Source of the DNA: Candidatus Levyibacteriota bacterium
Lineage (GTDB): Bacteria; Patescibacteriota; Microgenomatia; Levybacterales; UBA12049
Length of the DNA: 64,000 nucleotides
Reading direction: 5' to 3'
Assembly (NCBI GenBank): GCA_016186645.1
Contig: JACPLF010000006.1
Location: forward strand, 124,808-188,807
The notes under the pieces are model-generated. The model was given only the letters and a program-made list of their open reading frames with translations, was not told where the DNA came from and did no database searches. This document shows, in pieces, positions 13,291 through 63,660 of this stretch. Position numbers and translations under genes: made by a program. Positions within the stretch are counted from its first letter, which is position 1, and every line of letters starts with the position of its first letter.

Positions 13291-14502
13291 ATGTGGCAAG
13301 ATATTAAAAATATTTATCATTTGGGAATTGCTGTGCTGGCAAATATTTTTTACGGGTTTTCTTCTCAGAAAATTAAAGTTATTGGAGTGACGGGTACGGA
13401 CGGAAAAACAACCACGGCAAGCCTCATTTATCACATTTTAAATACTGCAGGCTTTAAAACATCTATGGTGACTTCGGTTGGCGCAGTCATTAGCGGGAAA
13501 AAGTACGATGTAGGTTTTCATGTTACTACTCCTTCATCTTTTGCGATACAAAAGTTTTTCAAAAAGGCTTTGGATACGGGATCGAAATTTCTTGTCTTGG
13601 AGACTACTTCCCATGCTTTGGATCAATTCAGGGTATTCGGCATTAGTTATGAAGTCGGAGTTCTGACAAATGTTACTCATGAGCATTTGGACTATCACAA
13701 AACTTATGAGAATTACGTCAAAACCAAAGCCAAACTTCTTGAAATGAGCAAAATTGCAATTGTTAACAGAGACGACTCTTCCTACAAACTAATTTTTAAT
13801 TTCAAATTTCTAATTTCTAAGTTGGTGACGTATGGAATGGGAAAAAATAGCAACATTAATCCCAAAACGTTTCCGTTTGAAACAAGCATGATTGGCGAGT
13901 TTAATGTTTATAATTCGCTTGCAGCAATTGCAGTTTGTATGCAGCTTGGAATAAAAAATGAAGATATCAGAAAGGGGATTGAAAGCTTTGTGATGCCGCT
14001 TGGAAGAGAAGACATAATCTTTAAAAAGGATTTTACTGTTATGATTGATTTTGCGCATACTCCAAATGCTTTTGAGCAAATTCTTAAATCAATCAAGCCG
14101 GAAGTAAAAGGTAGATTAATTCATGTTTTTGGCAGTGCCGGAGCAAGGGACGCAACCAAAAGACCATTGATGGGAAAAATGTCCTCAAAATACGCAGATA
14201 TTATTGTCTTAACAGCGGAAGACCCAAGATCAGAAAAAATTGAGAAGATTAATAGTGAGATTAAATCTGGAATTCCCCACTTCGCTAAAGCTTCGTGGGG
14301 CAAGCAGAATTCAGTTCAGCTTGTTGAGATTCCTGATAGGAAGGAAGCGATTAAAACCGCGATTGATATGGCAAAAAAAGGAGATTTCGTTATTATAACA
14401 GGCAAATCTCACGAAAAATCTATGAATTACGGACACGGCGAGGTCGCATGGGACGAATATAAAGCAGTAAAAGCTGCTTTAGAATTAAGATTTAAGAATT
14501 AA
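13291..14502 (+). CDS. murE: Mur ligase, most likely UDP-MurNAc-L-Ala-D-Glu:diamino-acid ligase MurE (short form)
   Basis: P-loop GVTGTDGKTTT, HLDYH and DFAHTP motifs, and EDPR in place of the DNPR motif. Position after ftsI supports MurE. 403 aa. Confidence 0.6.
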   Translation: MWQDIKNIYHLGIAVLANIFYGFSSQKIKVIGVTGTDGKTTTASLIYHILNTAGFKTSMVTSVGAVISGKKYDVGFHVTTPSSFAIQKFFKKALDTGSKFLVLETTSHALDQFRVFGISYEVGVLTNVTHEHLDYHKTYENYVKTKAKLLEMSKIAIVNRDDSSYKLIFNFKFLISKLVTYGMGKNSNINPKTFPFETSMIGEFNVYNSLAAIAVCMQLGIKNEDIRKGIESFVMPLGREDIIFKKDFTVMIDFAHTPNAFEQILKSIKPEVKGRLIHVFGSAGARDATKRPLMGKMSSKYADIIVLTAEDPRSEKIEKINSEIKSGIPHFAKASWGKQNSVQLVEIPDRKEAIKTAIDMAKKGDFVIITGKSHEKSMNYGHGEVAWDEYKAVKAALELRFKN

Positions 14503-15885: not shown

Positions 15886-17223
15886 ATGGAGAAAATTGTT
15901 ATAAAAGGCGGAAAAAGATTAACAGGCAGTATTTTTGTATCCGGAGCCAAAAATGTGGCTTTGAAAGCCATGGTGGCTGCATGTTTGACAGATGAGAAAG
16001 TGACAATAAAAAATATTCCTTTAATTTCTGATTTTATGGTTATGGTTGCAATAATAAAGGAATTAGGAGGAAAGGTTAAGGTCGTTGATCATATTGTCCA
16101 TATTCACATGAAGAAATTCAAGAAAGAAAAAATTTCCTTGGAAGAAGCAGGCAAAATACGAACATCTGTTATGTTTCTAGCCCCGCTTTTGGCCAGAATG
16201 GGAAAAGCAATTATTCCTAACCCCGGAGGATGCAGAATCGGAGCAAGGCCAATAGACAGAACCGTAGAAGGTCTTGAGAAAATGGGCTATTCAGCTTCAT
16301 ACAAAAGTAAAGACGGATTTTTCTATTTGCATAGCAAAAGTGAGCCTGCAAAAAAAGAGATTGTTTATAAATTTGAAAAAAGCACTCATACCGGCACTGA
16401 GACTCTTATTATGGTTGCATGTCTTTTAAATGGTACAAAAATAACTTTGGAAAATGCTGCTGCAGAGCCTGAAATAGATGAGTTAATAAATCTTCTTAAT
16501 CAGATGGGTGCTAAAATTTTAAGAACCAAAGAGAGAACAATAGTTATACAGGGTGTTGAGAAATTGAAGGGAACAGAATTTACCATAGATTCAGACAGAA
16601 ATGAAATTGTTACCCTTGCTGTTGCGGCTATTGTTACAAAAGGAGATATTCTAGTGAAAGGGGTGCAAAATGTTGACCTATCTCCCTTTATTCAAAGACT
16701 TGAGCTAGCCGGTGGAGGAGTAGAGCAAAAAAAAGAAGGAATCAGGTTTTTTTATAAAGGAGAATTAAATAAAGTTGATGTTGAGACCTCAATTTATCCC
16801 GGTTTTATGACGGATTGGCAAGGACCTTGGGCGATACTTATGACTCAGGCAAAGGGAGAGTCAATAATTCATGAAACAGTTTATGAAAATAGATTCGGAT
16901 ATGTTAAAGAGCTTGGAAAAATGGGAGCGGATATAGCTCTTTTTAATCCTGAAATAAAAAATCCTGAAAAAGTTTACAATTTTAATCTGTCCGACAACGA
17001 TGATTCCTATTTCCATGCAATAAAAGTAAAAGGCCCAACAAAATTACATAACGGCGTTGTTGAGATTTCAGATTTGAGAGCGGGGGCAACTTTGGTTTTG
17101 GCCGCTTTATCAGCAGCAGGAGAAAGTGTAATATTCGGCGTTGAACATTTGGATCGGGGATATGAAAAATTAGAGGCAGGATTGGGAAGTCTGGGTGCTA
17201 ATATAAAAAGAATTCAGGAATAA
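15886..17223 (+). CDS. murA: UDP-N-acetylglucosamine 1-carboxyvinyltransferase MurA
   Basis: MEKIVIKGGKRLTGSIFVSGAKNVALKAMVAACL is a canonical MurA N-terminus. 445 aa. Confidence 0.85.
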   Translation: MEKIVIKGGKRLTGSIFVSGAKNVALKAMVAACLTDEKVTIKNIPLISDFMVMVAIIKELGGKVKVVDHIVHIHMKKFKKEKISLEEAGKIRTSVMFLAPLLARMGKAIIPNPGGCRIGARPIDRTVEGLEKMGYSASYKSKDGFFYLHSKSEPAKKEIVYKFEKSTHTGTETLIMVACLLNGTKITLENAAAEPEIDELINLLNQMGAKILRTKERTIVIQGVEKLKGTEFTIDSDRNEIVTLAVAAIVTKGDILVKGVQNVDLSPFIQRLELAGGGVEQKKEGIRFFYKGELNKVDVETSIYPGFMTDWQGPWAILMTQAKGESIIHETVYENRFGYVKELGKMGADIALFNPEIKNPEKVYNFNLSDNDDSYFHAIKVKGPTKLHNGVVEISDLRAGATLVLAALSAAGESVIFGVEHLDRGYEKLEAGLGSLGANIKRIQE

Positions 17224-17229
17224 TTTTCT

Positions 17230-17970
17230 ATGAAAAAAATTGCAGCAATTATTCTGGCAGCGGGTAAAGGAAAAAGAATGAAATCAAAATATATAAATAA
17301 AGTTGTTGTTTCCTTGGGCGATAAGCATATGATTCTTCACGCAGTCGATAGATTAAAAGGGCTTTTGATTAACCCTATAATTGTGGTTGTAGGTTTTGCA
17401 AAAGAATCTGTGATGAAAGTTCTGGATGGAAAAGTAATCTTTGCAGAGCAAGCAAAAAGATTAGGTACTGCTCATGCTGTAATGTGCGGCTTGAAAAAAG
17501 TACCACAGGATGTAGATGCGGTTTTGGTTCTCAATGGAGATGATTCGGCTTTTTATACGAGCGAAATAATTGAAAAACTCATAAAAACCCATCAGGATTC
17601 AAGTGCGGCATTATCTTTTTTGACAATAACAGTTGATAATCCTTCGGGACTTGGAAGAGTAGTTAGAGATAATAATGGCAAAATAATGGGAATTGTTGAA
17701 GAAAAAGATGCAACCGAAAAGCAAAGAGGAATTAGCGAAATTAATCCGGCGTGCTATACTTTTAATATCTCATTTTTGAAAAAATATTTAGATAAAATTA
17801 AGAAAAGTGATGTTACCGGAGAATATTATCTAACGTCCCTTATAGATGCTGCAATTAAAAACAACGAAAAGGTGGAATCGGTTCCCTGTGGAAAGATTTT
17901 ATGGCGGGGAATAAATACGCCGGAAGAATTAAAAGAAGCGGAAAGATTATTTTTAACTTTTAAAAATTAA
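17230..17970 (+). CDS. sugar-phosphate nucleotidyltransferase resembling the GlmU N-terminal (uridyltransferase) domain only
   Basis: AAIILAAGKGKRMKS G-loop. 246 aa with no left-handed beta-helix acetyltransferase domain. Confidence 0.6.
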   Translation: MKKIAAIILAAGKGKRMKSKYINKVVVSLGDKHMILHAVDRLKGLLINPIIVVVGFAKESVMKVLDGKVIFAEQAKRLGTAHAVMCGLKKVPQDVDAVLVLNGDDSAFYTSEIIEKLIKTHQDSSAALSFLTITVDNPSGLGRVVRDNNGKIMGIVEEKDATEKQRGISEINPACYTFNISFLKKYLDKIKKSDVTGEYYLTSLIDAAIKNNEKVESVPCGKILWRGINTPEELKEAERLFLTFKN

Positions 17971-17971
17971 T

Positions 17972-18403
17972 ATGGAAATTACAATAGAACAGATCAAAAC
18001 TTTTTCTTCTGATTTAACACCGGCTTTAAATAGTCTATTAAAACAGCTAAATGAAGAAGCAGAAGCTCTTGATGATAAAGACGTTATGGGAATAATTGAG
18101 TCTTCACCTAATCGCTTGTTTGTTGCAAGAAGCGGTAGAGAAATAATCGGCATGCTGACTTTAATAGTATTTCGTAGCGCTTTTGCAAAAAAAGGACTGC
18201 TTGAGGACATTGTTGTTGATAGTAAATATCGGGGAAAGGGAGTTGGTACAAAAATAATTTTGGCTGCAATTGATGAGGCTCGCCGTGAAGGAGTGACTCA
18301 TCTTGATTTTACTTCCAGTCCTCAGCGGGAGGATGCAAATAGACTCTATCAGCATATGGGATTTGAGAAGCGAGACACCAACGTATACAGAATAAAATTA
18401 TAA
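17972..18403 (+). CDS. GNAT family N-acetyltransferase (candidate glucosamine-6-P N-acetyltransferase)
   Basis: GNAT motif A region VDSKYRGKGVGTKIILAAIDEARREG. 143 aa, the size of GNA1-type enzymes. Start overlaps the upstream stop. Confidence 0.65.
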   Translation: MEITIEQIKTFSSDLTPALNSLLKQLNEEAEALDDKDVMGIIESSPNRLFVARSGREIIGMLTLIVFRSAFAKKGLLEDIVVDSKYRGKGVGTKIILAAIDEARREGVTHLDFTSSPQREDANRLYQHMGFEKRDTNVYRIKL

Positions 18404-18880
18404 ATGGACAAAAATAAAGTTGTACTTTTTGATATAGACTACACTCTCTTTGACACAGCTTTTTTTAAAGAAAGTAAGCTTTTAAAACATAAAATCTATG
18501 AAGAGGTAATTGATGTTTTGGATGGTCTGAGTAAAATTGCAATTCTCGGAGTTTATTCGGAGGGAGATATTGATTTTCAAGTAAATAAAATTAAGGAAAC
18601 AAATATAGATAGGTATTTTGCCAAAGAAAATACGCATGTCGTTTTAGATAAGCTTTCGGATTTAAAAATAATATTTGAAAAATACAAAAATAAAAAAACT
18701 TTTCTTGTTGATGATAAGTTGCATATTTTACATAATGTAGAACAATTATTTCCTGACGTTTTTACCATTTGGGTAAAAAGAGGACCATTTGCGCAGAGCC
18801 AAACAGAAATTGCAGGATTCAAGCCCGATGCAGAAATCACGAACTTGGGAGAAGTTAAGAGTTTGATACTTAATACATAA
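18404..18880 (+). CDS. HAD-superfamily hydrolase-like protein
   Basis: N-terminal DxDxT motif (VVLFDIDYTLFDT). 158 aa. Confidence 0.5.
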   Translation: MDKNKVVLFDIDYTLFDTAFFKESKLLKHKIYEEVIDVLDGLSKIAILGVYSEGDIDFQVNKIKETNIDRYFAKENTHVVLDKLSDLKIIFEKYKNKKTFLVDDKLHILHNVEQLFPDVFTIWVKRGPFAQSQTEIAGFKPDAEITNLGEVKSLILNT

Positions 18881-18889
18881 TACTTTCGT

Positions 18890-20695
18890 ATGTGTGGAAT
18901 ATATGGTTACGTAGGCCATAAATCAGAAGCGGCAAATACTGTCCTTGATGGATTAAAACTTCTTGAATATAGAGGTTATGATTCTTGGGGAGTGGCAGCG
19001 AAGATTAAAGATGAAAGATTAGAGATGAAGGGTGGATTCCTTACGGAAAAACATGTTGGGAAGATAGGGGATAGCCATTTAAACTTTCAACTCTCAACTT
19101 TCAACTCTCATCTGGCAATAGGGCATACTCGCTGGGCGACTCATGGAGGAGTTACGGTTGCAAATGCTCATCCTCATACAGATTGCAAGGCTCAAATTGC
19201 AGTTGTTCACAATGGCATTGTAGAAAATTTCCAAGAATTAAAAACTTATCTTTTAAAAAAAGGCCACAAATTTATTTCGGAAACGGATACAGAAGTTATT
19301 CCCCATTTGATCGAGGAGAATCTTAAGCGAGAAGGTTTTGCTTCATCTGTGCGAGACGCATTTAATGCCCTAAGAGGCCTGAATGCTATTGTTGCTGTAA
19401 ATGCAGGATCTAGTGAAATTGTTGTTGCGAAAAATGGCTCACCTTTGATTATTGGTATTGGAGATCAGGAATTTTTTGTTTCTTCAGACGTTATTGGAAT
19501 TGTAGAACACACAAAAAAAGTAATTTTCCTCAAAGATCTAGAAATGGTTATTTTAGGGAATCCGCCAGCTGGCGGAATTCAGCTCCTATCACTTCCTGAG
19601 GGAAATAAATTAGAAATAAAACCCGAGCAAATTACCTGGAGTTATGAAATATCTACAAAAGGAAAATTTGACGATTTCATGATAAAAGAAATTCATGAGC
19701 AACCCAATGTAGTTAGAAATATTGCAGGAAATTATACAAGTCAAATTGAGAAACTAGCTAAAGAAATTCAAAATTCAAAAGGAACTTTTTTCATTGGGGC
19801 AGGAACTGCATATCATGCAGGATTTTCCGGAAATTATCTTTTCTCAAAGATTGCTAAAATCCACGTCAACACATCTGTCGCATCTGAGTTTAATTATTTG
19901 GAAGATTTTTTAACTAGGGACAGTCTTATTATTGCTTTGTCTCAAAGTGGAGAGACTATTGATGTTGTTGAGCCTTTGAATCGTGCAAAGAAAAAAGGAA
20001 GTAAAATTTTTGCAATAACAAATACTTTGGGCTCTACAATTTATAGAATGGCAGACTATAACATGCTCCTTAACGCCGGACCTGAAAAAGCAGTTGCGTC
20101 AACAAAAGCATATATCGCCAAAGTAAGCGTTATCCTTATGTTGGCATATGTTTTAATAGGGAAAACAAATGAAGCAAAAAATATTCTTCTCAAAACTGCA
20201 GATGAAATAGAAAGACTTCTTTCAGAGACAACGGTTGACGATATTAAAAAAATAGCCAAGGCTCTTTCTGTCTCAAAAAATGTTTATGCAATTGGGAGAG
20301 GGGTGTCCTATCCTTCTGCTCTTGAGGCAGCGCTCAAAATTAAAGAAGTAACATATATTCCTACAGAAGGACTTGCGGGAGGAGAGTTAAAGCATGGAAC
20401 GATTGCATTAATTAGCAAGGGAGTGCCCTGTATTGTATTTGCGCCAATGGACGAGACTTATGAATCAGTAATTTCAAATGCGATTGAAATTAAATCAAGA
20501 GGCGGAGTAATTATCGGTATTAGTCCGAAAAAAGCGGAAGTTTTTGACCATTTTGTAGAAGTGAAAGATGTGGATTCGGGATCCTACATAGCCCAAGTTG
20601 TGGTTGCTCAGCTTCTCGCTTATTACATGGCAATTGACTTGAAGTTGGATGCAGACAAGCCCCGCAACCTCGCCAAATCCGTTACAGTAAAGTAG
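18890..20695 (+). CDS. glmS: glutamine--fructose-6-phosphate aminotransferase GlmS
   Basis: MCGIYGY N-terminal nucleophile and two SIS domains. C-terminal ...AKSVTVK is near-canonical. Confidence 0.9.
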   Translation: MCGIYGYVGHKSEAANTVLDGLKLLEYRGYDSWGVAAKIKDERLEMKGGFLTEKHVGKIGDSHLNFQLSTFNSHLAIGHTRWATHGGVTVANAHPHTDCKAQIAVVHNGIVENFQELKTYLLKKGHKFISETDTEVIPHLIEENLKREGFASSVRDAFNALRGLNAIVAVNAGSSEIVVAKNGSPLIIGIGDQEFFVSSDVIGIVEHTKKVIFLKDLEMVILGNPPAGGIQLLSLPEGNKLEIKPEQITWSYEISTKGKFDDFMIKEIHEQPNVVRNIAGNYTSQIEKLAKEIQNSKGTFFIGAGTAYHAGFSGNYLFSKIAKIHVNTSVASEFNYLEDFLTRDSLIIALSQSGETIDVVEPLNRAKKKGSKIFAITNTLGSTIYRMADYNMLLNAGPEKAVASTKAYIAKVSVILMLAYVLIGKTNEAKNILLKTADEIERLLSETTVDDIKKIAKALSVSKNVYAIGRGVSYPSALEAALKIKEVTYIPTEGLAGGELKHGTIALISKGVPCIVFAPMDETYESVISNAIEIKSRGGVIIGISPKKAEVFDHFVEVKDVDSGSYIAQVVVAQLLAYYMAIDLKLDADKPRNLAKSVTVK

Positions 20696-20752: not shown

Positions 20753-21736
20753 ATGAAGATTCCGCCGGTATATACGATTTCATGTAAAATGCTGTCGCTT
20801 ATCACCAAAATTGAGGCAGAAAGATTGCATTTTTCCTCTTTAAGTCTTCCTGAAGAGCTGAAAGAAAATATACAAAGAATAAGTCTTCTGAAAAGTTCCC
20901 TTTTTTCTGCTCGTATTGAAGGAAATCCGCTTAATGTCTCTGATTTTGAATATGGGGCAGAAGCGGAAGAAGAAAAGAAGAAAGAGATATTTAATATTCT
21001 TAAGGCAATAAATTTTATAGATAAAAATACAAAAAAGGGCATTACGAAAGATTTAATTTTACATTTACATGTCTTGGCTTTGAAGAATATCTCATCGAAT
21101 GGCGGTAATTTTCGAAATGAAGTAAGCGCGATTTTTAATCAGGCGGGAGTTGCTGTTTATATGCCGCCACCGCCATCCATGATCTCGAAATCGTTAAACG
21201 AACTCTTAATTTACATAAATTCAAAGACAGAAAAATTTCCTCTTATCACTTCTTTCACCGCGCATCTAATTTTCGAAAAAATTCATCCTTTTTTAGATGG
21301 AAATGGCAGAGTCGGCAGGCTTCTAATTTCGGCGATTCTAAAATCAAAAGGTTGGGATTTTACCTTTACGGTACCTTTTGAAGAATATCTTGAGGAACAT
21401 AAAGACGAATATTATTTTCATTTAAGTAGCGGATTGAAGAATGCCAATGATTATCTTGAATTTATGCTTGACGCATTCTACAAACAAATACAAAAAATAA
21501 AAGATCAGATTGATCAGGAAATTGCCAAAGAATCGCATCCATTCCTTCCGCCCCGTCAGGAAGAAATACTTAATATCATTAAAGATCAGATCGTTGTGTC
21601 TTTTGATATGATAAGAAGGCGATTCCTTCGGGTACCGCAAAGGACACTCCGCTGGGATCTAAAAAAACTTCTTGATAGAAGACTTATTGAAAAAAGCGGT
21701 GCAACAAGAGGAAGATATTACAGGATAAGAAAATAG
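20753..21736 (+). CDS. Fic family protein (class II, with N-terminal inhibitory motif)
   Basis: Fic motif HPFLDGNGRVGRLL. Upstream SARIEGN matches the [S/T]xxxE[G/N] auto-inhibition motif. Confidence 0.8.
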   Translation: MKIPPVYTISCKMLSLITKIEAERLHFSSLSLPEELKENIQRISLLKSSLFSARIEGNPLNVSDFEYGAEAEEEKKKEIFNILKAINFIDKNTKKGITKDLILHLHVLALKNISSNGGNFRNEVSAIFNQAGVAVYMPPPPSMISKSLNELLIYINSKTEKFPLITSFTAHLIFEKIHPFLDGNGRVGRLLISAILKSKGWDFTFTVPFEEYLEEHKDEYYFHLSSGLKNANDYLEFMLDAFYKQIQKIKDQIDQEIAKESHPFLPPRQEEILNIIKDQIVVSFDMIRRRFLRVPQRTLRWDLKKLLDRRLIEKSGATRGRYYRIRK

Positions 21737-21781
21737 ATTTTTTTCTTGACAAAATAAAAATTCTATATTATTATTCGGCTT

Positions 21782-25808: not shown

Positions 25809-27101
25809 ATGGTAGATGGAAAAATAGTCGTAGGTGTTGATATCGGTACCTCAAAAATTGTTACTATTATTGCAAGAGTAGAGAATGAAATTGCAAATGT
25901 GTTGGGAGTTTCAGAAGTTGCCTCCCGAGGCGTTAAAAAAGGCCAAATAGTAGACATAAAAGAAGCAGTTGAATCTATTAATAATTCACTTGATGGAGCC
26001 GAAAGAATGGCTGGCTACTCTGTCTCTCATGTGGCTGCTTCAATCGGCGGAGGACATATTGAGTCTCAAAATTCAAGAGGCGTTGTTGCAGTATCATCTC
26101 CTCAAGGGGAAATAACCGAAAGTGATCTTGCTCGCGTAATTGATGCGGCTAAAGCAGTTTCTCTTCCATCGAGCCGCCAAATTGTTCATGTTTTGCCTCG
26201 TAATTATGTTGTTGATGGACAAGAAGGAATAAAAGATCCAATTAGTATGACTGGGATAAGGCTTGAGGTAGATACTCATATTATCTCAGCTGCTTCCACG
26301 TCTTTAATGAATTTAGAAAAAGCTTTTTCCCAGGTTGGTATCGATATTGATGGGGTTGCTTTCAGCGGATATGCATCCAGCCTTTCGGTTTTGTCGGAAA
26401 CGGAAAAAGAATTAGGAGTTGTATGCGTAGATATTGGAGCGGGAACAACAGACATATCGATTTATTCGGAAGGATCAGTCGCATATTCTTCCGTATTACC
26501 AATTGGCGCCAGACATATAACAAATGATTTAGCAATAGGTCTTAGAATTTCTTTGGAGAGCTCTGAAAAAATTAAAATTTATTTATCCAATACCCGAAAA
26601 AACCCAAAAATAGAAAGACTTGGAGAAACATTTGAAAAAGAAAATATAAATAGAGATGAAGTAGACTTAAGCTCTCTAGGTCTGCCGGAGGATCTTAGAA
26701 AAGTTTCTCACAAAACATTAACAGATGGAATAATTAGGCCTCGGCTTAATGAAATTTTTACCATGATAGGAATAGAAATTAAAAGGTCAGGATACGCGGG
26801 ACAAACACCTGCGGGGATTGTAATAACAGGAGGCGGAGCGTTAACTGTTGGAATAGCAGATAGCGCCAAAAGAACTTTGGCAATGCCGGTCAGAATTGGG
26901 CTGCCAATTAATATAAAGGGCCTAATTGATGAAATAGAAACCCCTGCTTTCGCAACTGTTGTAGGGCTTGCGGTTTTCGGCGGCAGTCTTGATGTGAGAA
27001 AATCTTTGCCTTTCGGAATTAGTCTTCCTTCCTTGGGAAATTTGGGATTTAACAAAGCGCTTTCCCGTCTTATAAATTTAATCAAATCCTTCATGCCATA
27101 A
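25809..27101 (+). CDS. ftsA: cell division protein FtsA
   Basis: Actin-like ATPase motifs (VVGVDIGTSKIV and CVDIGAGTTDISIY). C-terminal amphipathic ...LINLIKSFMP*. Confidence 0.85.
   Translation: MVDGKIVVGVDIGTSKIVTIIARVENEIANVLGVSEVASRGVKKGQIVDIKEAVESINNSLDGAERMAGYSVSHVAASIGGGHIESQNSRGVVAVSSPQGEITESDLARVIDAAKAVSLPSSRQIVHVLPRNYVVDGQEGIKDPISMTGIRLEVDTHIISAASTSLMNLEKAFSQVGIDIDGVAFSGYASSLSVLSETEKELGVVCVDIGAGTTDISIYSEGSVAYSSVLPIGARHITNDLAIGLRISLESSEKIKIYLSNTRKNPKIERLGETFEKENINRDEVDLSSLGLPEDLRKVSHKTLTDGIIRPRLNEIFTMIGIEIKRSGYAGQTPAGIVITGGGALTVGIADSAKRTLAMPVRIGLPINIKGLIDEIETPAFATVVGLAVFGGSLDVRKSLPFGISLPSLGNLGFNKALSRLINLIKSFMP
27081..27101. repeat. ftsA 3'-end sequence ATCAAATCCTTCATGCCATAA (copy A, inside ftsA)
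   Basis: Direct repeat with 34138-34161 and 34971-34995. Confidence 0.6.
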
Positions 27102-27143: not shown

Positions 27144-30100
27144 ATGCCAGTAGATATGACACCAGAAACAGAAAGCGGACATCATCCTAATGGAGAGGGG
27201 GGGGCAGAATCCCCTTTGCCGGAGATAAGGCTGACCCAAGTTGTTAAATCGGCATCTCCAGTTGTTCCAGAAAGAATTTTAAGGGAAAAGACCATGGAAG
27301 AAAAAGCCTTGCTCGTGCCTTACGGGGAATACACGTTTCTTATTGTAAGGGATTCCGGCAGAATTGCTCTTTTGGACGCAAATGGCAAGAATGTAGAGGA
27401 ATTTGCCAACTTGGGGTCAACGATGATTCTTGATTGGGATAGTATCAGAACGAAGAGGGTTACACGAATAACTAGATTAACAGCAGCCGGGAAAGAAGAA
27501 ATTAGTGTGCATGAATTGAAAGATCCAAAATTAAAGAGAGCGGCTAGTGAGAAATTCAGCTATTTAAACGTAGATTCTATGGAAATTCCACCTCCATGGA
27601 AATTGGACGATTCTCATCCCGGACAGATTCATTTCTCCATTTCTAGAAATGGTATTATTTTTGGCTCAGGTGAAATAGTGGGTTTTCGTACAACGGACGA
27701 GCATGATATTCCTTATCCTGTTCGAAACTGGATAAGGACAGATAATGCTAGTGTTGATTTTAAAGATAGACTGTTTTTGCAAAATATGGCGATTGGGCTT
27801 CCTACACTTACTAAAGAAGTGGCAAAATTGCCGCGCGGTGTTGATGCGTTTGGCAGAACGGAGTATATAGTAAACGCTTCGGATGAACTTACGCTTCATT
27901 TGGGTGATGACAAGAAGGTTTACTTGGGGCGCGTAGACGCGGGAGGACGTATCTGTGTTGATCCTACGGAGAAAGATGCAGTTTACTTTCTAAGCCAGCA
28001 AAATCCTACTTATTTACTCAAGATAGATGCATCAGCGGAGCGCATTTCACAGAGACAGCGATTGGAAGCTCAACATTTACCTTTCCCTAGAGATTTTGGT
28101 GCGGTTAAATCCATATCCATTGATCCGCAAGGCAGCTTTTTCATGCTAGAAACAGATAAGGGAATCGTTCTTCTGGAAAAAGGTACACTTAAGGAGTTGA
28201 AGGATGCTCCTGGTTTTTCTTCGGCGCATTTTGATTCAAAAGGAAGAATAGTTGCTCTAGATAACAATGGGTACTTTGTTATATTGCAGCCGGATTTAGA
28301 GGAGTATCGTAGAGCAATTGAAAAGGCAAAGATGGAAGGGATTGTCAGAGGAGCAACAGCGGATTTATTTGGAAAAGAAGAAGCTGAAACCGGAAAGGTT
28401 GATGTCGATAAATTTAAGCATCTGTTGCCAATAAGGACAAATTTGCAAAATGATTTCGATCCTCAGATACGTAAAATCAAAACTTTTAGTGAGACAACCG
28501 CAATTTCACGAGCTCTGGATACATTAAGATCCCGCCTTGGGTCCCAAGGACTAAATCCCGAACAAGTATTATTTATCACAAAAGGAATAGAAGAGGCAAT
28601 ACGAGCTAAACAACAGGAATTGGCTATGCCATTGGTTGTTCAAGGATTGGCGGATTTACAGGGCAAGCTTTCAGGAGACTTAACTGTAGCTGTTCTTTCT
28701 GAAGCCAGAGACGATCTTACCAAATTAAAATCTTTGGAAGGGTTCGTTGATGAAGGGACGCGCGCCAAAATAATTGCTTTGGAAAAACAATTAAGTACGC
28801 AGAGCTCTGAGTTTTTTCGTAGAGAAAGCCCGGTGATTGAAAAATATGGTAGCGATATTGTGCAAAGGGAAATAACAAGACTTGTACAGATAACAAGTAA
28901 ACCTGATTTTGACGATTGGCAAGAACATACATTGCCTCAGCAGTTAAGGAGGCTAACGGAATTGATCAATAATTATCCGCCAGACGCTCCTTCAGAGACA
29001 TTAGAGAGACTTCTGTCTTTTAGCAAGCAACTGCGGGACATGGCTAGGGAATATGAGATTAAATTTAAAGAAAGATATGCGGAGGTTCGTCAAAGGGGAT
29101 CTGTAATAATGGGTGAAAGAGTAGGATTAATTGAATCAGACATAGTTTCGTTTGCTGAAAGACTTAGAGGTAGAGGTTTTAAGGATAGGATGCAGGCAGA
29201 AACTCATATTGGATCAAGTGAGGCATTGGGAATCCTTCGATCTGACATTGAAGAGCTTGCAAGGCAAAATCCGGATGCAGCAAGAGAGTTAGATAGGACA
29301 CTGAAAGCGCAAATTGCCAACATAATGTTTGAAATTGAGCGTGGCGGGCTGACAACAATTGCAGAAACTGGTCAGCAAATGGAGTTATTTGGAAAGACTC
29401 TATTTCCAAGATGGGAAGCCCCAATCAAAGAAAAGACTCAAAAAAAAGTTGATCTTATTTTTATCCCGAATGAAAGATCAGAAGGCCCAGGAATTTCTCC
29501 AGATAGAATTTACGGCGATGTGGGGCTTGCTGTTATAAATTCACGGGGCAAGGTAGCAAGAGTAAGACTTTTTGAGGGATGGGAGAAGGAGAATGCAGTT
29601 AGATTGGGCATATTGCCTTTAATTCCACCATCCTATGTTACGTATGCTGAGTTTGGGGAAATAAGAAAGGCATATATGGACTGGAATATCGGAGAGAAAT
29701 CAAAGATTCGGCAAGAGCTTGCCCAAAGAAGCAACGTGCTTCGGGAGTGGCGAAAAGCAAGACTAGGGCAACACAAATCTCCTCAGGAAGAGGAAGAATG
29801 GAAAGACTTACTTAGAGATTATGTAAGTTTTTATGCTGAAAATTATATCTCTATTTTGCATCGTGTGGATCGTGTAAAAAAAGCTCCGGAGGGCGAGTAC
29901 GAGAATGGAAAAGGTTTTGTTCCTGAGTGGCAAAGCCATTGGACAGTAGACGAAACCACAGAGCACTATTTGGAAGAAATGGCTAAGGCTTCCGGAATGC
30001 AGCTTGATTTACAAGAAGGCTTACTTAATCTTAAGGGGCATGCGGGAACAGGAAAAGACGTACTCGTAAAAATGTTTAGCAATCGAACAAACAGGCCTTA

Positions 30101-30998
30101 TTTTACAATTGACTGCTCAAAATGGACAACAGAGTTCGAACTTTCAGAAGACGTAGTGCTTGAAGCAGAAGACGGCGCGTCAAAAACAGTAAAAGTCCCA
30201 TCAGTTGTTTTAAACGCTATAACAACCCCTGGTGCAATTATGTACTTCAATGAGATTAACGCCATGCCGGAACAGGCACAGATTTTCCTGCATGGATTAA
30301 TGGATGAAAAAAGAACATTGACTCTCAAAACAAGTTCGGGAAAAGCGGTTAAAACTTTGCCTAGTGTGCTTTTGATGGGGTCGATGAATCCGGGATATCC
30401 GGGCACGTTTAATCCCCAATTTGCAACTAAGAGTAGAATGGTTGGACTAGAAATAGATTACCCTCCATTATATGGAGAAAGAGGAACAAACGATCCTAAT
30501 CCAAACCCTCCAATAAGCGCTGCTGAGGCATTACGGGTTGCTCGACAAGTTGATTCATTGGCTGATTTTACCTATGAAGCCAATCCTAAGCACAATGAAT
30601 TCGTACGAATATGGGACAGGTATGTTAATGGGATTCAAAATGGAGCGCCTGACTTAAATCAAGTACAAAGATTTGATGTTGAAGCTATTTTGACAATGGT
30701 GGAGTTTGCACAAAAACTTAGGGAAGGATTTATACTGAAGTTTGAAAAAGCAAGGGCATCGTCAATTCCTAAGGGAACACTTTTAGTTGATCAGCCAATA
30801 ACAGGAAGAGAAATGAGAAGAATGGCTTACTTTTTAAGCAAAATGTCTCCAGAGGAAAAGGCAACAGCTAATCCAGAAGCAGTAATAAGAAGTCTTATTG
30901 AAAGATTCTTCCTGTCCCATATTGATAAGAAAGATGAGAGGGATGAAATAAGAACAGCAATGGCTACTTGGACGTCGTCCAAGAGACCGGCAGCTTAG
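27144..30998 (+). CDS. giant (1284 aa) protein with a C-terminal MoxR/AAA_5-class AAA+ ATPase domain and a roughly 900-aa unassigned N-terminal region
   Basis: P-loop GHAGTGKD, Walker-B-like IMYFNEIN, FLHGLMDEKRTLT and sensor region LLMGSMNPGYPGT align to MoxR-family signatures. No signal peptide. Confidence 0.65.
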   Translation: MPVDMTPETESGHHPNGEGGAESPLPEIRLTQVVKSASPVVPERILREKTMEEKALLVPYGEYTFLIVRDSGRIALLDANGKNVEEFANLGSTMILDWDSIRTKRVTRITRLTAAGKEEISVHELKDPKLKRAASEKFSYLNVDSMEIPPPWKLDDSHPGQIHFSISRNGIIFGSGEIVGFRTTDEHDIPYPVRNWIRTDNASVDFKDRLFLQNMAIGLPTLTKEVAKLPRGVDAFGRTEYIVNASDELTLHLGDDKKVYLGRVDAGGRICVDPTEKDAVYFLSQQNPTYLLKIDASAERISQRQRLEAQHLPFPRDFGAVKSISIDPQGSFFMLETDKGIVLLEKGTLKELKDAPGFSSAHFDSKGRIVALDNNGYFVILQPDLEEYRRAIEKAKMEGIVRGATADLFGKEEAETGKVDVDKFKHLLPIRTNLQNDFDPQIRKIKTFSETTAISRALDTLRSRLGSQGLNPEQVLFITKGIEEAIRAKQQELAMPLVVQGLADLQGKLSGDLTVAVLSEARDDLTKLKSLEGFVDEGTRAKIIALEKQLSTQSSEFFRRESPVIEKYGSDIVQREITRLVQITSKPDFDDWQEHTLPQQLRRLTELINNYPPDAPSETLERLLSFSKQLRDMAREYEIKFKERYAEVRQRGSVIMGERVGLIESDIVSFAERLRGRGFKDRMQAETHIGSSEALGILRSDIEELARQNPDAARELDRTLKAQIANIMFEIERGGLTTIAETGQQMELFGKTLFPRWEAPIKEKTQKKVDLIFIPNERSEGPGISPDRIYGDVGLAVINSRGKVARVRLFEGWEKENAVRLGILPLIPPSYVTYAEFGEIRKAYMDWNIGEKSKIRQELAQRSNVLREWRKARLGQHKSPQEEEEWKDLLRDYVSFYAENYISILHRVDRVKKAPEGEYENGKGFVPEWQSHWTVDETTEHYLEEMAKASGMQLDLQEGLLNLKGHAGTGKDVLVKMFSNRTNRPYFTIDCSKWTTEFELSEDVVLEAEDGASKTVKVPSVVLNAITTPGAIMYFNEINAMPEQAQIFLHGLMDEKRTLTLKTSSGKAVKTLPSVLLMGSMNPGYPGTFNPQFATKSRMVGLEIDYPPLYGERGTNDPNPNPPISAAEALRVARQVDSLADFTYEANPKHNEFVRIWDRYVNGIQNGAPDLNQVQRFDVEAILTMVEFAQKLREGFILKFEKARASSIPKGTLLVDQPITGREMRRMAYFLSKMSPEEKATANPEAVIRSLIERFFLSHIDKKDERDEIRTAMATWTSSKRPAA

Positions 30999-31013
30999 TT
31001 ATGCAATACAGAT

Positions 31014-34000: not shown

Positions 34001-34136
34001 TCAAAGAAGAGGATTGGCCGCTATTTTTGGAGATGAACATACAACAGTTGCTCCAGATTTTGAAGCTTTGATCGAACAAAGTATGTACAAATTTGATGAA
34101 GACATAGAAGCGTATTTACGAGATAAAACTATATAA
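31014..34136 (+). CDS. giant (1040 aa) transglutaminase-like, coiled-coil and von Willebrand factor A (MIDAS) fusion protein
   Basis: Transglutaminase core Cys-His-Asp context (ECYSANTLFIAMLRKIGIPARLVIGH...GHAWTEVWDG...RMDATP). Q/E/D-rich low-complexity linker and a heptad-like charged region. vWA MIDAS motifs DVSGSM, GGTN and GDGEDT. Confidence 0.7.
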   Translation: MDMDTERGEIPRPPQKDGLAREKIFLAEQASEGDLKVVPGKNWAFHYPHGAQARSDAISGLLDGRTKPEDVLGDLKPDAFTYDVADLEHQGLVSVAGRVRDVSAYVTHYDYSRFAQFVASLQGTGITPDTAQSLYDGIAQNRIRKKMIEAYGYTGRKQMEEALKLEAERAVQQIGSLPRVEKVLAALKMNWMAEDQLARTEQRDQTVGQLSPDERQLYDLLRDPYQDYVRRGDQSAYESLVNGVKENIPKIQQEPEKPEEPQRDEAQEKLEEELEEYKDEAVPPVTPGDPGIPPEDSDEYHTPSSPPWESEEEASSHPYFEITPNGTSTKPMTGYYASGRKSHYDIDQKTWSKKKQLVSYGANINGNERQTISATVGKGLTSIPIPNGYGLDMQSLKFTGDRPEIFRDQNGCFYIKTDGGSTFSIDFLKENPVFSGSPIADDIVPIHRGQLSIETENAMTGLVGSDLEKAEALRKYLLSKHFYPGDGDLQMAQALQLKLRSESAGDNYIQNLDKSEYLECYSANTLFIAMLRKIGIPARLVIGHRVENAKNGKASINSTTGHAWTEVWDGSAWRRMDATPRPKQQKKDQKGDSNSPTQEAQDGGIEGQGQPQQDQPQQGQGSQSGESMPGQQMGEASDQDIAQGESQLDNAQQFSEHLEQEKQSLDQKLENAESFQDLKKLEQEAQESDLFDDMKQDLQDRLEAKEEQMKEAIKENLDEMVQDGFLDEERRQELERQLEENKLEELDRIRQQIERESRLFNEYQDIKEEVAPLVDQWFDYFVERLPRQKEVELDEDSLTRQGAFNRHSVMKPRNLLFGTVKNPRVIKPSIKPKFLASVMVDVSGSMAGEKLNMARKQLVFYNELFSRISSEFGFIRYANNIFSDNLVELKTYDQDYESPVRYDWGDGTRSTIKARLMQALHTQGGTNMLPAIQKAAADLNKETFEYPDYASAFYFVGDGEDTSGNSARIKEFLGLLDSEHGFGEHMLSAIMLGDESQRRGLAAIFGDEHTTVAPDFEALIEQSMYKFDEDIEAYLRDKTI

Positions 34137-47423: not shown

Positions 47424-47696
47424 TTGCATTATATGTTTTATATTTATGTACTAAGGAGCGTTAAAGATAAAAAACTGTATTCTGGTTATACATCTGACTT
47501 AAGATCAAGATTTAGATATCACAACCAAGGTAAAGTAGAAGTAACTAAGCATAGAAGGCCATTTAAGCTGATTTATTATGAGGCATACTTGCATCAACAA
47601 GATGCAACAGCAAGAGAGAAATTCCTTAAGACTCAATGGGGAAGAAATTTTTTGAAAAGAGTTCTTAAGAATTATTTTAAAAACTTGGACGACTAG
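47424..47696 (+). CDS. small GIY-YIG nuclease family protein
   Basis: YIYVLRS...KLYSGYTSDLRSRFRYHNQG and KLIYYEAY match the GIY-YIG core. The 3' end overlaps the tRNA by about 10 nt. Confidence 0.6.
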   Translation: MHYMFYIYVLRSVKDKKLYSGYTSDLRSRFRYHNQGKVEVTKHRRPFKLIYYEAYLHQQDATAREKFLKTQWGRNFLKRVLKNYFKNLDD

Positions 47697-47758
47697 CTCA
47701 GTGGTAGAGCGCCTCGCTCACATCGAGGAGGTCGTTGGTCCAATTCCAACGTCGTCCA
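47687..47758 (+). tRNA. tRNA-Val (anticodon CAC)
   Basis: Manual cloverleaf. Acceptor GGACGAC/GTCGTCC, D-arm GCTC-AGTGGTA-GAGC, anticodon arm CCTCG-CTCACAT-CGAGG, T-arm GTTGG-TCCAATT-CCAAC. The T-loop is atypical and there is no encoded CCA. Confidence 0.55.
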
Positions 47759-47760
47759 CT

Positions 47761-51306: not shown

Positions 51307-51322
51307 GCTGATATAATACGAA

Positions 51323-52489: not shown

Positions 52490-52498
52490 AGACTAACT

Positions 52499-55656: not shown

Positions 55657-55673
55657 TAAAATAAGGTATCTTT

Positions 55674-63656: not shown

Positions 63657-63660
63657 TATT

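What the first reader, a model, noticed from the sequence alone, without database searches (positions are those of the whole stretch)
17230..20695. Split, eukaryote-like UDP-GlcNAc synthesis module embedded in the dcw cluster
The sequence shows a 246-aa nucleotidyltransferase with the GlmU uridyltransferase G-loop (LAAGKGKRMKS) but no left-handed beta-helix acetyltransferase domain. A 143-aa GNAT acetyltransferase follows with overlapping start and stop. A 158-aa HAD-family protein (DxDxT) comes next, and then glmS. From established knowledge, bacterial GlmU is bifunctional and acetylates GlcN-1-P with an LbH domain. Eukaryotes instead acetylate GlcN-6-P with a GNAT enzyme (GNA1) and use a separate pyrophosphorylase (UAP1). 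I infer that this organism may use a GNA1-like GNAT in place of the GlmU acetyltransferase domain. The HAD protein may act in the phospho-sugar interconversion. No GlmM homologue is present in the window.
Basis: inference. Interest (0 to 1): 0.55.

Follow-up and report, generated by a model that had tools for sequence, protein, structure and literature searches.

The report
Split GlmU with GNAT and HAD partners
In this tiny-genome (CPR, Levybacteria) bacterium the enzyme that normally makes the cell-wall building block UDP-GlcNAc has lost its acetyl-transfer half, and two small conserved neighbour genes (a GNAT acetyltransferase and a HAD phosphatase-type protein) appear to complete the pathway, giving a testable candidate for an alternative bacterial route.

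Summary
Four tightly packed + strand genes sit between murA and mraY: a 246-aa GlmU-type uridylyltransferase with no LbH domain, a 143-aa GNAT, a 158-aa HAD-fold protein and a full glmS. The source is a Candidatus Levybacteria MAG.

The arrangement is not chance. Of 80 species-level genomes that carry this GNAT, 23 have murA-NTase-GNAT and 4 have GNAT-HAD-glmS-glmR. The same HAD family is fused to the truncated NTase in 12 protein clusters, and one protein is an NTase-HAD-GNAT fusion. Two CPR dcw clusters without the GNAT carry an NTase+LbH protein instead.

I conclude that the GNAT most likely supplies the acetyltransferase step lost with the LbH domain. The HAD protein most likely acts at or next to the sugar-1-phosphate step.

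"Eukaryote-like" is supported only as pathway logic. The NTase is GlmU-type, not UAP1. The GNAT is not a member of the GNA1 family. It does share E-D-I, Thr114, Tyr126 and Arg140 with GNA1-type enzymes, including the independently evolved apicomplexan GNA1.

Three things are unresolved: whether the substrate is GlcN-6-P or GlcN-1-P, what the HAD protein does (mutase, phosphatase or pyrophosphatase), and whether glmM or an LbH enzyme lies elsewhere in the genome. I found no published description.

The parts
15886..17223 (+). murA (UDP-GlcNAc enolpyruvyl transferase). It is the first consumer of the module's product and the conserved upstream neighbour.
   Evidence: Pfam EPSP_synthase, 251 bits. 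It lies immediately upstream of the NTase in 23 of 80 GTDB loci.
17230..17970 (+). Stand-alone GlmU-type N-acetylglucosamine-1-phosphate uridylyltransferase. It has the N-terminal domain and linker helix only, with no LbH acetyltransferase domain.
   Evidence: NCBIfam GlmU models match profile positions 2-236 only, at about 200 bits and below cut-off. All top solved-structure hits are GlmU. The motifs LAAGKGKRM(9-17), QAKRLGTAHAV(74-84), GDD, GLGRV, VEEKDAT, EIN, GEYYLT and GIN are kept. It belongs to a large family of 240-260-aa proteins.
17972..18403 (+). GNAT N-acetyltransferase. It is the proposed replacement for the GlmU LbH acetyltransferase. The acceptor is GlcN-6-P or GlcN-1-P and is not resolved.
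   Evidence: Pfam Acetyltransf_1, 63.7 bits. AF2 model pLDDT 95. Invariant residues are E78, D79(>=90%), K/R74, G90, T114, S115, N123, Y126, T136, N137, Y139 and R140. It follows the NTase at -16 to +13 nt in 23 loci.
18404..18880 (+). Cap-less HAD-fold phosphohydrolase or phosphotransferase. It belongs to a CPR-specific family that partners the NTase and GNAT. Its role is not resolved.
   Evidence: All four HAD motifs are invariant: D10, D12, T14; S52; K83; D103-D104. AF2 model pLDDT 93. The best structural match is 2p11, of unknown function. Orthologues with a 64-aa C1 cap exist. The same family is fused to the NTase in 12 clusters.
18890..20695 (+). glmS, glutamine--fructose-6-phosphate aminotransferase. 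It makes GlcN-6-P, the entry step of the pathway.
   Evidence: NCBIfam PRK00331 637 bits against a cut-off of 381; TIGR01135 613 bits. No glmS ribozyme in the window.

Best explanation
The four genes are an operon segment of the dcw cluster that makes UDP-GlcNAc by a 'split GlmU' route.

Shown:
- GlmS is complete.
- The NTase is a GlmU uridylyltransferase domain with its catalytic motifs and no LbH domain.
- The GNAT and the HAD protein are conserved, translationally abutting neighbours of it across deeply diverged CPR genomes.
- The HAD family is repeatedly fused to this NTase.

Inferred:
- The GNAT has displaced the LbH acetyltransferase and N-acetylates a glucosamine phosphate with acetyl-CoA.
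- The NTase then converts GlcNAc-1-P and UTP to UDP-GlcNAc, which MurA, encoded just upstream, consumes.
- The HAD protein works at or next to the sugar-1-phosphate step. It may form the 1-phosphate (mutase-like, or as a 1,6-bisphosphate 6-phosphatase), or it may remove pyrophosphate.

The GNAT is an independent bacterial recruitment, not an orthologue of eukaryotic GNA1. Which glucosamine phosphate it acetylates is open.
For: Synteny:
- murA-NTase-GNAT-HAD-glmS-mraY recurs in L001-L007 with GNAT identity down to 43%.
- L009 keeps only NTase-GNAT, with overlapping genes.
- Among 80 GTDB species loci, 23 have murA-NTase-GNAT and 4 have GNAT-HAD-glmS-YvcK/GlmR.
- The linked GNATs group together on a neighbour-joining tree, apart from the stand-alone ones.

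Fusions:
- 12 of the 150 best NTase representatives are NTase-HAD fusions. Their HAD part matches this HAD family at 1e-14 to 5e-27, and they have no Hexapep.
- P0247 is an NTase-HAD-GNAT fusion.

Displacement:
- The two GNAT-less dcw clusters L092 and L093 carry an Arch_glmU-like NTase+LbH protein next to the truncated NTase or the NTase-HAD fusion.
- No LbH homologue lies in the window or within about 7 kb of the GNAT in any of the 89 loci L001-L089.

GNAT residues:
- E78-D79-I80 equals the sugar-binding E-D-(I/V) of GNA1, and Y126 equals the catalytic Tyr.
- T114, Y126 and R140 align with T117, Y127 and R141 of C. parvum GNA1. In that enzyme R141A and Y127A had almost negligible activity, and T117A cut catalytic efficiency for GlcN6P about 1,750-fold.

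Operon:
- Gaps are 0-9 nt and there is no terminator-like site inside the segment.
Against: - About two thirds of the GNAT family's members in the sample are stand-alone genes in unrelated contexts. They occur in Bacteroidota, Acidimicrobiia and Opitutales at 40-47% identity. The family is therefore not dedicated to this pathway.
- No profile library, solved structure or fold search assigns a substrate.
- The phosphate-binding Lys/Arg of GNA1 enzymes (Ce K136, Cp R113) aligns with a variable position.
- Only 64 kb of the genome was seen. An LbH acetyltransferase or a GlmM may lie elsewhere.
- L092 and L093 show that a truncated NTase can coexist with an LbH protein.
- The HAD gene is absent or degenerate in several lineages (L009, L023, L028, L063, L018, L022, L003). 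It also exists with or without its cap, which is hard to reconcile with a beta-PGM-style mutase.
- The triple fusion is a single sequence on one 5.6-kb contig.
Confidence: 0.6

Rival explanations
1. Eukaryote-order route. The GNAT acetylates GlcN-6-P as GNA1 does. The HAD protein converts GlcNAc-6-P to GlcNAc-1-P, as a HAD-fold mutase or through a 1,6-bisphosphate. The NTase finishes. Four genes would give four steps with no GlmM needed.
For: - The gene set matches the number of steps. GNAT-HAD-glmS-glmR forms a 'precursor supply' cluster without the NTase.
- NTase-HAD fusions suggest the HAD product feeds the NTase.
- The E-D-I, T114, Y126 and R140 matches are to enzymes proven to use GlcN-6-P.
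- GlcN-6-P acetyltransferase activity has arisen independently in a GNAT at least twice (PMC5838249).
- No phosphohexomutase lies in the window or in any of the 89 loci L001-L089.
- HAD-fold phosphomutases exist: beta-PGM and eukaryotic PMM (established knowledge).
Against: - The HAD protein is far below the beta-PGM family cut-off, at 18-21 bits against 189.
- Cap-less and capped orthologues coexist. In known HAD mutases the cap is needed to hold the bisphosphate intermediate (established knowledge).
- The HAD gene is missing or degenerate in several module-bearing lineages.
- The phosphate-binding Lys/Arg of GNA1 enzymes is not conserved.
- Absence of GlmM from the genome was not tested.
Confidence: 0.25
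2. Bacterial-order route with a swapped acetyltransferase. A conventional GlmM encoded elsewhere makes GlcN-1-P. The GNAT acetylates GlcN-1-P, exactly replacing the LbH domain. The NTase finishes. The HAD protein is an accessory enzyme, such as a pyrophosphatase that pulls the NTase reaction or a sugar-phosphate phosphatase acting as a safety valve.
For: - NTase and GNAT are the tightest and most persistent pair. They abut or overlap, and are present without HAD or glmS in L009, L023, L028 and L063. This mimics the two GlmU domains.
- The HAD gene is dispensable in some lineages and its cap is dispensable. That fits a small substrate such as PPi, or an accessory role.
- HAD-type pyrophosphatases are known, and BT2127 (3quq) and PpaX appear among the weak matches.
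- An NTase-HAD fusion makes sense for removing a product.
Against: - In L026-type clusters the HAD gene travels with the GNAT and glmS rather than with the NTase. That is odd for a pyrophosphatase serving the NTase.
- No GNAT is known to act on GlcN-1-P (own knowledge).
- The residue matches are to GlcN-6-P enzymes.
Confidence: 0.25
3. Hitch-hikers. The GNAT and HAD genes have functions unrelated to hexosamine synthesis, such as protein or small-molecule acetylation and a generic phosphatase. They merely ride in the dcw operon. A normal LbH acetyltransferase and a GlmM elsewhere do the work, and the truncated NTase may be redundant or may act on another sugar-1-phosphate (MurU-like).
For: - Most family members outside CPR are stand-alone genes in unrelated contexts.
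- JGI labels them RimI-like.
- The truncated NTase coexists with an NTase+LbH protein in L092 and L093.
- A close NTase relative is fused to an APH-type kinase, as in the AmgK-MurU salvage route.
- The rest of the genome was not seen.
Against: - Three independent kinds of linkage to hexosamine genes survive down to 36-41% GNAT identity.
- The HAD family is fused to the NTase in 12 clusters.
- rimI scores 33.6 bits against a cut-off of 86.4, and MurU scores 37 bits against about 200 for GlmU.
- LbH is absent from all GNAT-bearing clusters but present in the GNAT-less ones.
Confidence: 0.15

Closest known systems
Bacterial bifunctional GlmU (GlcN-1-P N-acetyltransferase / GlcNAc-1-P uridylyltransferase; TIGR01173)
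   Same: The N-terminal uridylyltransferase domain is homologous: about 35-40% identity to solved GlmUs, with all nucleotide- and sugar-binding motifs and the linker helix kept. The product and the cell-wall gene context are the same.
   Different: The whole C-terminal LbH acetyltransferase and trimerisation domain is missing. Acetyl transfer is proposed to come from an unrelated fold (GNAT) encoded by a separate gene. A HAD partner has no counterpart in GlmU.
Eukaryotic hexosamine pathway (GNA1, AGM1, UAP1)
   Same: Separate polypeptides carry out acetylation and uridylylation, and the acetyltransferase has a GNAT fold. The GNAT keeps the E-D-(I/V) sugar-binding beta-bulge and the catalytic Tyr of GNA1.
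   Different: - It is not an orthologue. GNA1s match one another at 1e-27 to 3e-16, but this protein reaches them only at about 1e-4.
- The phosphate-binding Lys and the conserved Cys are not kept, and a 3-residue insertion carries an invariant Pro and Arg.
- The pyrophosphorylase is GlmU-type, not UAP1.
- No AGM1-type mutase is in the locus.
Apicomplexa-specific GNA1 (C. parvum GNA1, PDB 6YUG; PMC5838249, PMC7587441)
   Different: Cp H81 aligns with D79 here. Cp R73 and R113 are not conserved at the aligned positions. Several GNATs of unknown or other function score higher (1z4e, 3pp9, 7wx5). The resemblance is therefore a lead, not evidence of membership.
Archaeal-type bifunctional sugar-1-P nucleotidylyltransferase/acetyltransferase (Arch_glmU, TIGR03992; ST0452-like)
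   Same: This is the type found in the same dcw position in the GNAT-less CPR lineages L092 and L093. It is the likely functional counterpart that the GNAT replaces.
   Different: It carries an LbH acetyltransferase fused to its own NTase. Nothing like it is in the window or in the GNAT-bearing clusters.
GmhB/HddC-type logic in NDP-heptose synthesis, and HAD-fold phosphomutases (beta-PGM, eukaryotic PMM)
   Same: A HAD-fold enzyme acts immediately before a sugar-1-P nucleotidylyltransferase. It either removes the distal phosphate of a 1,x-bisphosphate or moves the phosphate. This fits the recurrent NTase-HAD fusions. GmhB and putative beta-PGM structures appear among the weak fold matches.
   Different: No family-level match was found (bPGM 18-21 bits against 189). 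No anomeric kinase is in the operon. The window's protein lacks the cap domain. This comparison rests on established knowledge of those pathways plus inference.
NagU and the partial-GlmU bacteria described in bioRxiv 10.64898/2026.06.23.733835
   Same: That work shows GlmU is not the universal route. [quoted passage not shown] The present module offers a concrete candidate.
   Different: NagU is a UAP1-like uridyltransferase that replaces the other half of GlmU. Neither CPR bacteria nor GNAT or HAD partners are mentioned.

Membership tests
GlmU (bifunctional, TIGR01173 / PRK14354) | N-terminal uridylyltransferase domain with the L-x2-G-x-G-T/K-R-M loop and sugar-binding motifs | tested here: met
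   Matches GlmU profiles at positions 2-236, about 200 bits. Aligns to residues 6-239 of E. coli GlmU with the motifs kept.
GlmU (bifunctional, TIGR01173 / PRK14354) | C-terminal left-handed beta-helix acetyltransferase domain, and a whole-protein score above the curated cut-off | tested here: not met
   The protein ends at residue 246. No Hexapep hit. It scores 201 bits against a cut-off of 367. No LbH homologue is in the window.
GNA1 (GlcN-6-P N-acetyltransferase, EC 2.3.1.4, classical family) | Sequence clustering with characterised GNA1s | tested here: not met
   ScGNA1 finds other GNA1s at 1e-27 to 3e-16. The query finds them at 2e-4 to 4e-3, or 4e-10 to 9e-6 as a profile, behind non-GNA1 GNATs.
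GNA1 (GlcN-6-P N-acetyltransferase, EC 2.3.1.4, classical family) | Beta-bulge E-D-(I/V) that binds the sugar and acetyl carbonyl, and the catalytic Tyr (Sc E98-D99-I100, Y143) | tested here: met
   E78-D79-I80 and Y126 align with them and are invariant or nearly so. The residue roles come from PMC4964394 and PMC3413214. The motif also occurs in a non-GNA1 GNAT (3pp9), so it is not diagnostic.
GNA1 (GlcN-6-P N-acetyltransferase, EC 2.3.1.4, classical family) | 6-phosphate ligands Lys (Ce K136 / Sc K130) and C-terminal Arg (Ce R164 / Sc R158), and the conserved L-D-C motif | tested here: not met
   The Lys aligns with the variable H110. L-D-C is replaced by T114-S115 plus a 3-residue insertion. 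The C-terminal Arg is off by one in an ungapped extension, so that point is ambiguous.
GNA1 (GlcN-6-P N-acetyltransferase, EC 2.3.1.4, classical family) | Strand-swapped homodimer with the acceptor site at the interface, and activity on GlcN-6-P | not testable with these tools
   Only a monomer model was made. No assay was possible.
Apicomplexa-specific GNA1 family (CpGNA1/PfGNA1) | Residues shown by mutagenesis to matter for GlcN6P turnover: R73, H81, R113, T117, Y127, R141 | tested here: inconclusive
   T117, Y127 and R141 align with the invariant T114, Y126 and R140. H81 aligns with D79. R73 and R113 are not kept at the aligned positions, although K/R74 is invariant nearby. The published family is restricted to Apicomplexa.
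RimI (ribosomal protein S18-alanine acetyltransferase, TIGR01575) | Score above the curated cut-off | tested here: not met
   33.6 bits against a cut-off of 86.4. The context is cell-wall genes, not tsaB/tsaD.
HAD superfamily (phosphatase / phosphomutase core) | Four catalytic motifs: DxDxT, S/T, K, and DD | tested here: met
   D10, D12, T14; S52; K83; D103-D104 are invariant in 30 homologues. The Rossmannoid fold model has pLDDT 93 and hits HAD structures.
beta-phosphoglucomutase family (TIGR01990 / TIGR02009) | Family-level profile score and a C1 cap domain | tested here: not met
   Capped orthologues score 18-21 bits against a cut-off of 189. The window's protein has no cap.
alpha-D-phosphohexomutase (GlmM/AGM1/PGM) | Any homologue in the window or in related loci | tested here: not met
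   No motif or phmmer hit in the window or in the 89 loci L001-L089. The probe was validated. The rest of the genome was not seen.
UAP1/NagU-type (UDPGP, eukaryote-like) pyrophosphorylase | UDPGP-family fold and profile | tested here: not met
   The Pfam hits are NTP_transferase, NTP_transf_3 and IspD only. The NCBIfam hits are GlmU-type.
GlmS (TIGR01135 / PRK00331) | GATase class II domain plus two SIS domains, above cut-off and full length | tested here: met
   637 and 613 bits against cut-offs of 381 and 418, over residues 1-600.

The most novel reading that the evidence does not exclude
These CPR bacteria may make UDP-GlcNAc with neither GlmM nor the GlmU acetyltransferase. On this reading a new, third independently evolved GNAT-type glucosamine-phosphate N-acetyltransferase supplies the acetyl step. 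A new HAD-fold enzyme, often fused to the uridylyltransferase, supplies GlcNAc-1-P, either as a phosphomutase or as a 1,6-bisphosphate phosphatase. The wider GNAT family found in Opitutales (PVC), Bacteroidota and Acidimicrobiia could then be the 'unidentified acetyltransferase' of bacteria that have only part of GlmU.
Probability: 0.2. Interest if true: 0.8.

Novelty: new variant of a known kind. Interest (0 to 1): 0.62.

Why it matters
UDP-GlcNAc synthesis is essential for peptidoglycan. GlmU and GlmM are treated as universal bacterial enzymes and as antibiotic targets. A 2026 preprint shows that GlmU is dispensable or partial in many bacteria. It states explicitly that species with only the N-terminal domain must have an unidentified acetyltransferase.

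This locus supplies a specific candidate that can be cloned, a 143-aa GNAT. It also supplies a second unannotated partner, a HAD family labelled 'hypothetical' whose members mostly have no precomputed Pfam domain.

If the module is confirmed, three things follow:
- Genome-based reconstructions of cell-wall metabolism in Patescibacteria would need correcting.
- It would be a third case of GNAT recruitment to glucosamine-phosphate acetylation.
- It might reveal a new HAD-fold route to a hexosamine-1-phosphate.

Tried and rejected
- RimI, antibiotic acetyltransferase and PhnO assignments are all far below their cut-offs.
- A MurU-type assignment for the NTase was rejected: 37 bits against about 200 for GlmU.
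- No glmS ribozyme or other Rfam element lies in the locus.
- A search for GlmM/PGM homologues in the window and in 89 loci found none. This says nothing about the rest of the genomes, and I could not scan whole genomes with these tools.
- I looked for a simple two-domain NTase-GNAT fusion. None occurs among the 150 best representatives. There is only the single NTase-HAD-GNAT protein, and a follow-up search found no second one.
- Gene contexts of the stand-alone GNATs in Bacteroidota, Actinomycetota and Opitutales were read for clues and gave none. One Polaribacter locus has nagB-like and acs genes upstream, but this is not conserved.
- The HAD profile and model gave no specific function. The best hit, 2p11, is uncharacterised.
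- The first genome scan with the broad alignment A2 failed for lack of a conserved stretch and was rerun with CPR-only sequences.
- The paper on T. brucei GNA1 was not held.
- Literature searches for GlmU, GlmM or GNA1 together with CPR, Patescibacteria or Levybacteria found no description of this module.

Full report
**Observation**

They are a 246-aa nucleotidyltransferase (17230-17970), a 143-aa GNAT (17972-18403), a 158-aa HAD-fold protein (18404-18880) and a 601-aa GlmS (18890-20695).

They lie inside a typical dcw cluster: mraZ, rsmH, PBP, murE-like, murC, murA, the four genes, fic, mraY, ftsW, murG, ftsA and, further on, ftsZ.

The genes are packed with gaps of 6, 1, 0 and 9 nt. The NTase and GNAT therefore abut rather than overlap, which is a trivial correction. 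No terminator-like site lies within the segment, and there is no glmS ribozyme. An exact match in the protein database identifies the source as a Candidatus Levybacteria MAG, on a 214.8-kb contig.

**The NTase**

Every NCBIfam GlmU equivalog model matches it, but only over profile positions about 2-240 of about 450. The score is about 200 bits, below all cut-offs, and Pfam finds no hexapeptide repeat. The best solved structures are all GlmU, at 1e-36 to 1e-28. The alignments cover residues 6-239 of E. coli GlmU and keep the G-loop, QxxxLGTxHA, GD, GxGR, VExKDA, EIN, GEYY and G(V/I)N motifs. It is thus a GlmU uridylyltransferase domain plus linker helix. It is not a UAP1/NagU-type enzyme, and MurU scores only 37 bits.

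An exhaustive search of 1.84 billion representatives shows that the short form is a large family. Most of the 150 best hits are 240-260 aa.

**The GNAT**

It is a confident GNAT by Pfam (63.7 bits), and its AF2 model has pLDDT 95. Nothing assigns a substrate.
- NCBIfam hits (sat3, rimI, ArsN1, PhnO and others) are all far below their cut-offs.
- Solved-structure searches put uncharacterised GNATs first, led by 1z4e. Classical GNA1s lie well down the list.

As a membership test I used yeast GNA1, recalled from memory and verified as 100% identical to 1i21. It finds other GNA1s at 1e-27 to 3e-16. The present protein reaches them at about 1e-4. It is therefore not a GNA1-family member.

Some residues do match. 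E78-D79-I80 aligns with the sugar- and acetyl-binding beta-bulge E98-D99-I100, and Y126 aligns with the catalytic Tyr143. The 6-phosphate Lys (Ce K136) and the conserved Cys are not kept.

The profile also aligns full length with C. parvum GNA1 (6YUG) at 6.9e-11, with hhalign probability 97.5%. That enzyme belongs to the apicomplexan family, which evolved GlcN-6-P acetyltransferase activity independently (PMC5838249).
- Cp T117, Y127 and R141 fall on the invariant T114, Y126 and R140. In CpGNA1 the R141A and Y127A mutants had almost negligible activity, and T117A cut catalytic efficiency for GlcN6P about 1,750-fold (PMC7587441).
- Cp R73 and R113 are not kept at the aligned positions. A basic residue at position 74 is, however, invariant in all 28 aligned sequences.

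This is suggestive, not diagnostic.

**The HAD protein**

All four HAD catalytic motifs are invariant in 30 homologues, and the model is confident (pLDDT 93). The family has at least 273 members. Where a source names them they are mostly 'hypothetical protein', and most have no precomputed Pfam domain. The best structural and profile match is the uncharacterised 2p11, followed by assorted HAD-IA phosphatases, dehalogenases and NANP.

An alignment of orthologues from related loci shows two forms. One carries a 64-residue C1 cap. The other, including the window's protein, is cap-less. The two forms are interleaved on the GNAT tree, and one lineage (L003/L012) has lost motif I. Capped forms score only 18-21 bits on the beta-PGM model, against a cut-off of 189.

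**Comparative genomics, the decisive evidence**

Synteny:
- The order murA-NTase-GNAT-HAD-glmS-mraY recurs in metagenomic and MAG contigs with GNAT identity down to 43%. L009 retains only NTase-GNAT, with overlapping genes.
- A scan of one genome per GTDB species found 389 relatives of the GNAT. I classified the best 80 with the window's own proteins. In 23 of them murA-NTase-GNAT is present: 11 with HAD and glmS, 6 with HAD only, 2 with glmS only, and 4 with neither.
- Four more, including a complete 1.14-Mb Levybacteria chromosome, have GNAT-HAD-glmS followed by YvcK/GlmR (302 bits in L026), the UDP-GlcNAc-binding regulator of GlmS.
- The remaining 53 have the GNAT alone. They are Acidimicrobiia, Bacteroidota (including cultured Dysgonomonas, Polaribacter, Petrimonas and Algibacter) and Opitutales, and their contexts are uninformative.
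- On a neighbour-joining tree the hexosamine-linked GNATs group together, apart from the stand-alone ones.

Fusions:
- Among the 150 best NTase representatives, 12 are 471-626-aa NTase-HAD fusions. Their HAD half matches an HMM of this HAD family at 1e-14 to 5e-27. Pfam finds no hexapeptide repeat in the ten of them that were scanned.
- One protein, P0247 (626 aa), is an NTase-HAD-GNAT fusion. It is a single sequence on one 5.6-kb contig, and no second example was found.
- Other relatives are fused to Mur ligases or to an APH-type kinase.

Displacement:
- In two CPR dcw clusters that lack the GNAT, an Arch_glmU-like NTase+LbH protein (261 bits on TIGR03992) sits beside the truncated NTase (L092). 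A similar NTase+LbH protein sits beside an NTase-HAD fusion in L093.
- No LbH homologue exists in the window or within about 7 kb of the GNAT in any of the 89 loci L001-L089.

This complementary pattern is what non-orthologous displacement of the acetyltransferase would look like.

**Interpretation**

The best-supported reading is a 'split GlmU' UDP-GlcNAc module in which a GNAT has taken over the acetyl transfer lost with the LbH domain (confidence about 0.6). The steps are:
- GlmS makes GlcN-6-P. This is shown by family membership.
- The GNAT acetylates a glucosamine phosphate. This is inferred from context and from partial active-site matches.
- The NTase makes UDP-GlcNAc for MurA. The domain identity is shown; the substrate is inferred.

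The HAD protein belongs to the same process. The fusions place it next to the NTase step, and the GNAT-HAD-glmS-glmR clusters place it in precursor supply. Together these favour a role in generating the sugar-1-phosphate, either as a HAD-fold mutase or, by analogy with GmhB in NDP-heptose synthesis, as a bisphosphate phosphatase. Against a beta-PGM-like mutase are the dispensability of its cap and its absence from some lineages. Those features leave a pyrophosphatase or an accessory phosphatase as live alternatives.

I cannot decide between the eukaryote order (acetylate GlcN-6-P, then move the phosphate) and the bacterial order (GlmM elsewhere, then acetylate GlcN-1-P).

**What remains open**

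Only 64 kb of the genome is visible. No phosphohexomutase is in the window or in any of the 89 loci L001-L089, and the probe was validated. The coexistence of a truncated NTase with an LbH protein in L092 and L093 shows that the short NTase alone does not prove the absence of an LbH enzyme.

**Novelty**

Full-text searches found no paper linking GlmU, GlmM or GNA1 with CPR, Patescibacteria or Levybacteria. [quoted passage not shown] An earlier survey noted genomes that lack GlmU or its C-terminal domain (PMC7725333).

The present module is therefore a new variant of a known pathway, and it makes that open point directly testable. It is not a new kind of system.

Noticed in passing
window 27144-34136: A roughly 7-kb block of higher G+C (0.41-0.42, against about 0.36 in the flanks) sits inside the division cluster, between ftsA (25809-27101) and ftsZ (36950-38062). 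It holds two giant ORFs. One is a 1284-aa protein with a C-terminal AAA_5 (MoxR/dynein-like) ATPase domain. The other is a 1040-aa protein with transglutaminase-core and VWA domains and a long acidic, Gln-rich linker.
   Followed up: partly
window 20753-21736: A Fic-domain gene (327 aa, Pfam Fic 67 bits) is inserted between glmS and mraY. None of the related loci has it at this position. The best promoter-like site in the region (11 of 12 matches, 21746-21774) follows it, ahead of a 79-aa ORF and mraY.
   Followed up: partly
L026:6983-11039; also L029, L030, L042: In another Levybacteria-type clade the GNAT, a capped HAD, glmS and a YvcK/GlmR homologue form a separate four-gene cluster away from murA and the NTase. 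YvcK/GlmR is a UDP-GlcNAc-binding protein and scores 302 bits on TIGR01826 in L026.
   Followed up: yes
L011, L014, L015, L019, L021, L025, L026, L029, L030, L042, L050 versus the window, L001, L004, L006, L010, L013, L017, L024, L034, L038, L039, L045: The HAD family exists with or without a roughly 64-residue C1 cap. The deletion boundaries are the same in all cap-less forms, and the two forms are interleaved on the GNAT tree. In L003/L012 the protein has lost motif I, the nucleophile.
   Followed up: partly
P0259, P0272, P0290, P0316 (Mur ligase fusions); P0266 (APH kinase fusion); P0261 (tandem NTase); L092, L093: Relatives of the truncated GlmU-type NTase are fused to Mur ligases, to an APH-family kinase (reminiscent of AmgK-MurU salvage), or are duplicated in tandem. 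In L092 and L093 a truncated NTase or an NTase-HAD fusion coexists with an Arch_glmU-like NTase+LbH protein in one dcw cluster. Why both are needed is unexplained.
   Followed up: partly
L032, L053, L065, L082 (Bacteroidota); L035, L036, L043, L046 (Opitutales); L008, L061 and others (Acidimicrobiia): Stand-alone homologues of the GNAT (40-47% identity) keep the KGxxEDxVV and FxKR(D/E)TNxYR motifs. They occur in phyla where GlmU is reported as missing or partial in some members (FCB, PVC). In Polaribacter the gene lies downstream of a long nagB-like gene and acetyl-CoA synthetase. In Opitutales it is followed by a conserved gene for a protein of about 510 aa of unknown function.
   Followed up: partly
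window 13291-14502: The first Mur ligase of the cluster (403 aa) has only the middle and C-terminal Mur ligase domains, with no N-terminal catalytic domain by Pfam. The same short form (409-412 aa) is conserved in related loci.
   Followed up: no
window 48000-64000: The last 16 kb drops to 0.28-0.34 G+C. It encodes a run of glycosyltransferases and large polytopic membrane proteins (ArnT/PMT-like by eye), a flippase-like protein and a methyltransferase, so it is probably a surface-glycan island. The ORF called at 47701-48567 (GTG start) begins inside tRNA-Val (47687-47759), so its true start is probably further downstream.
   Followed up: no
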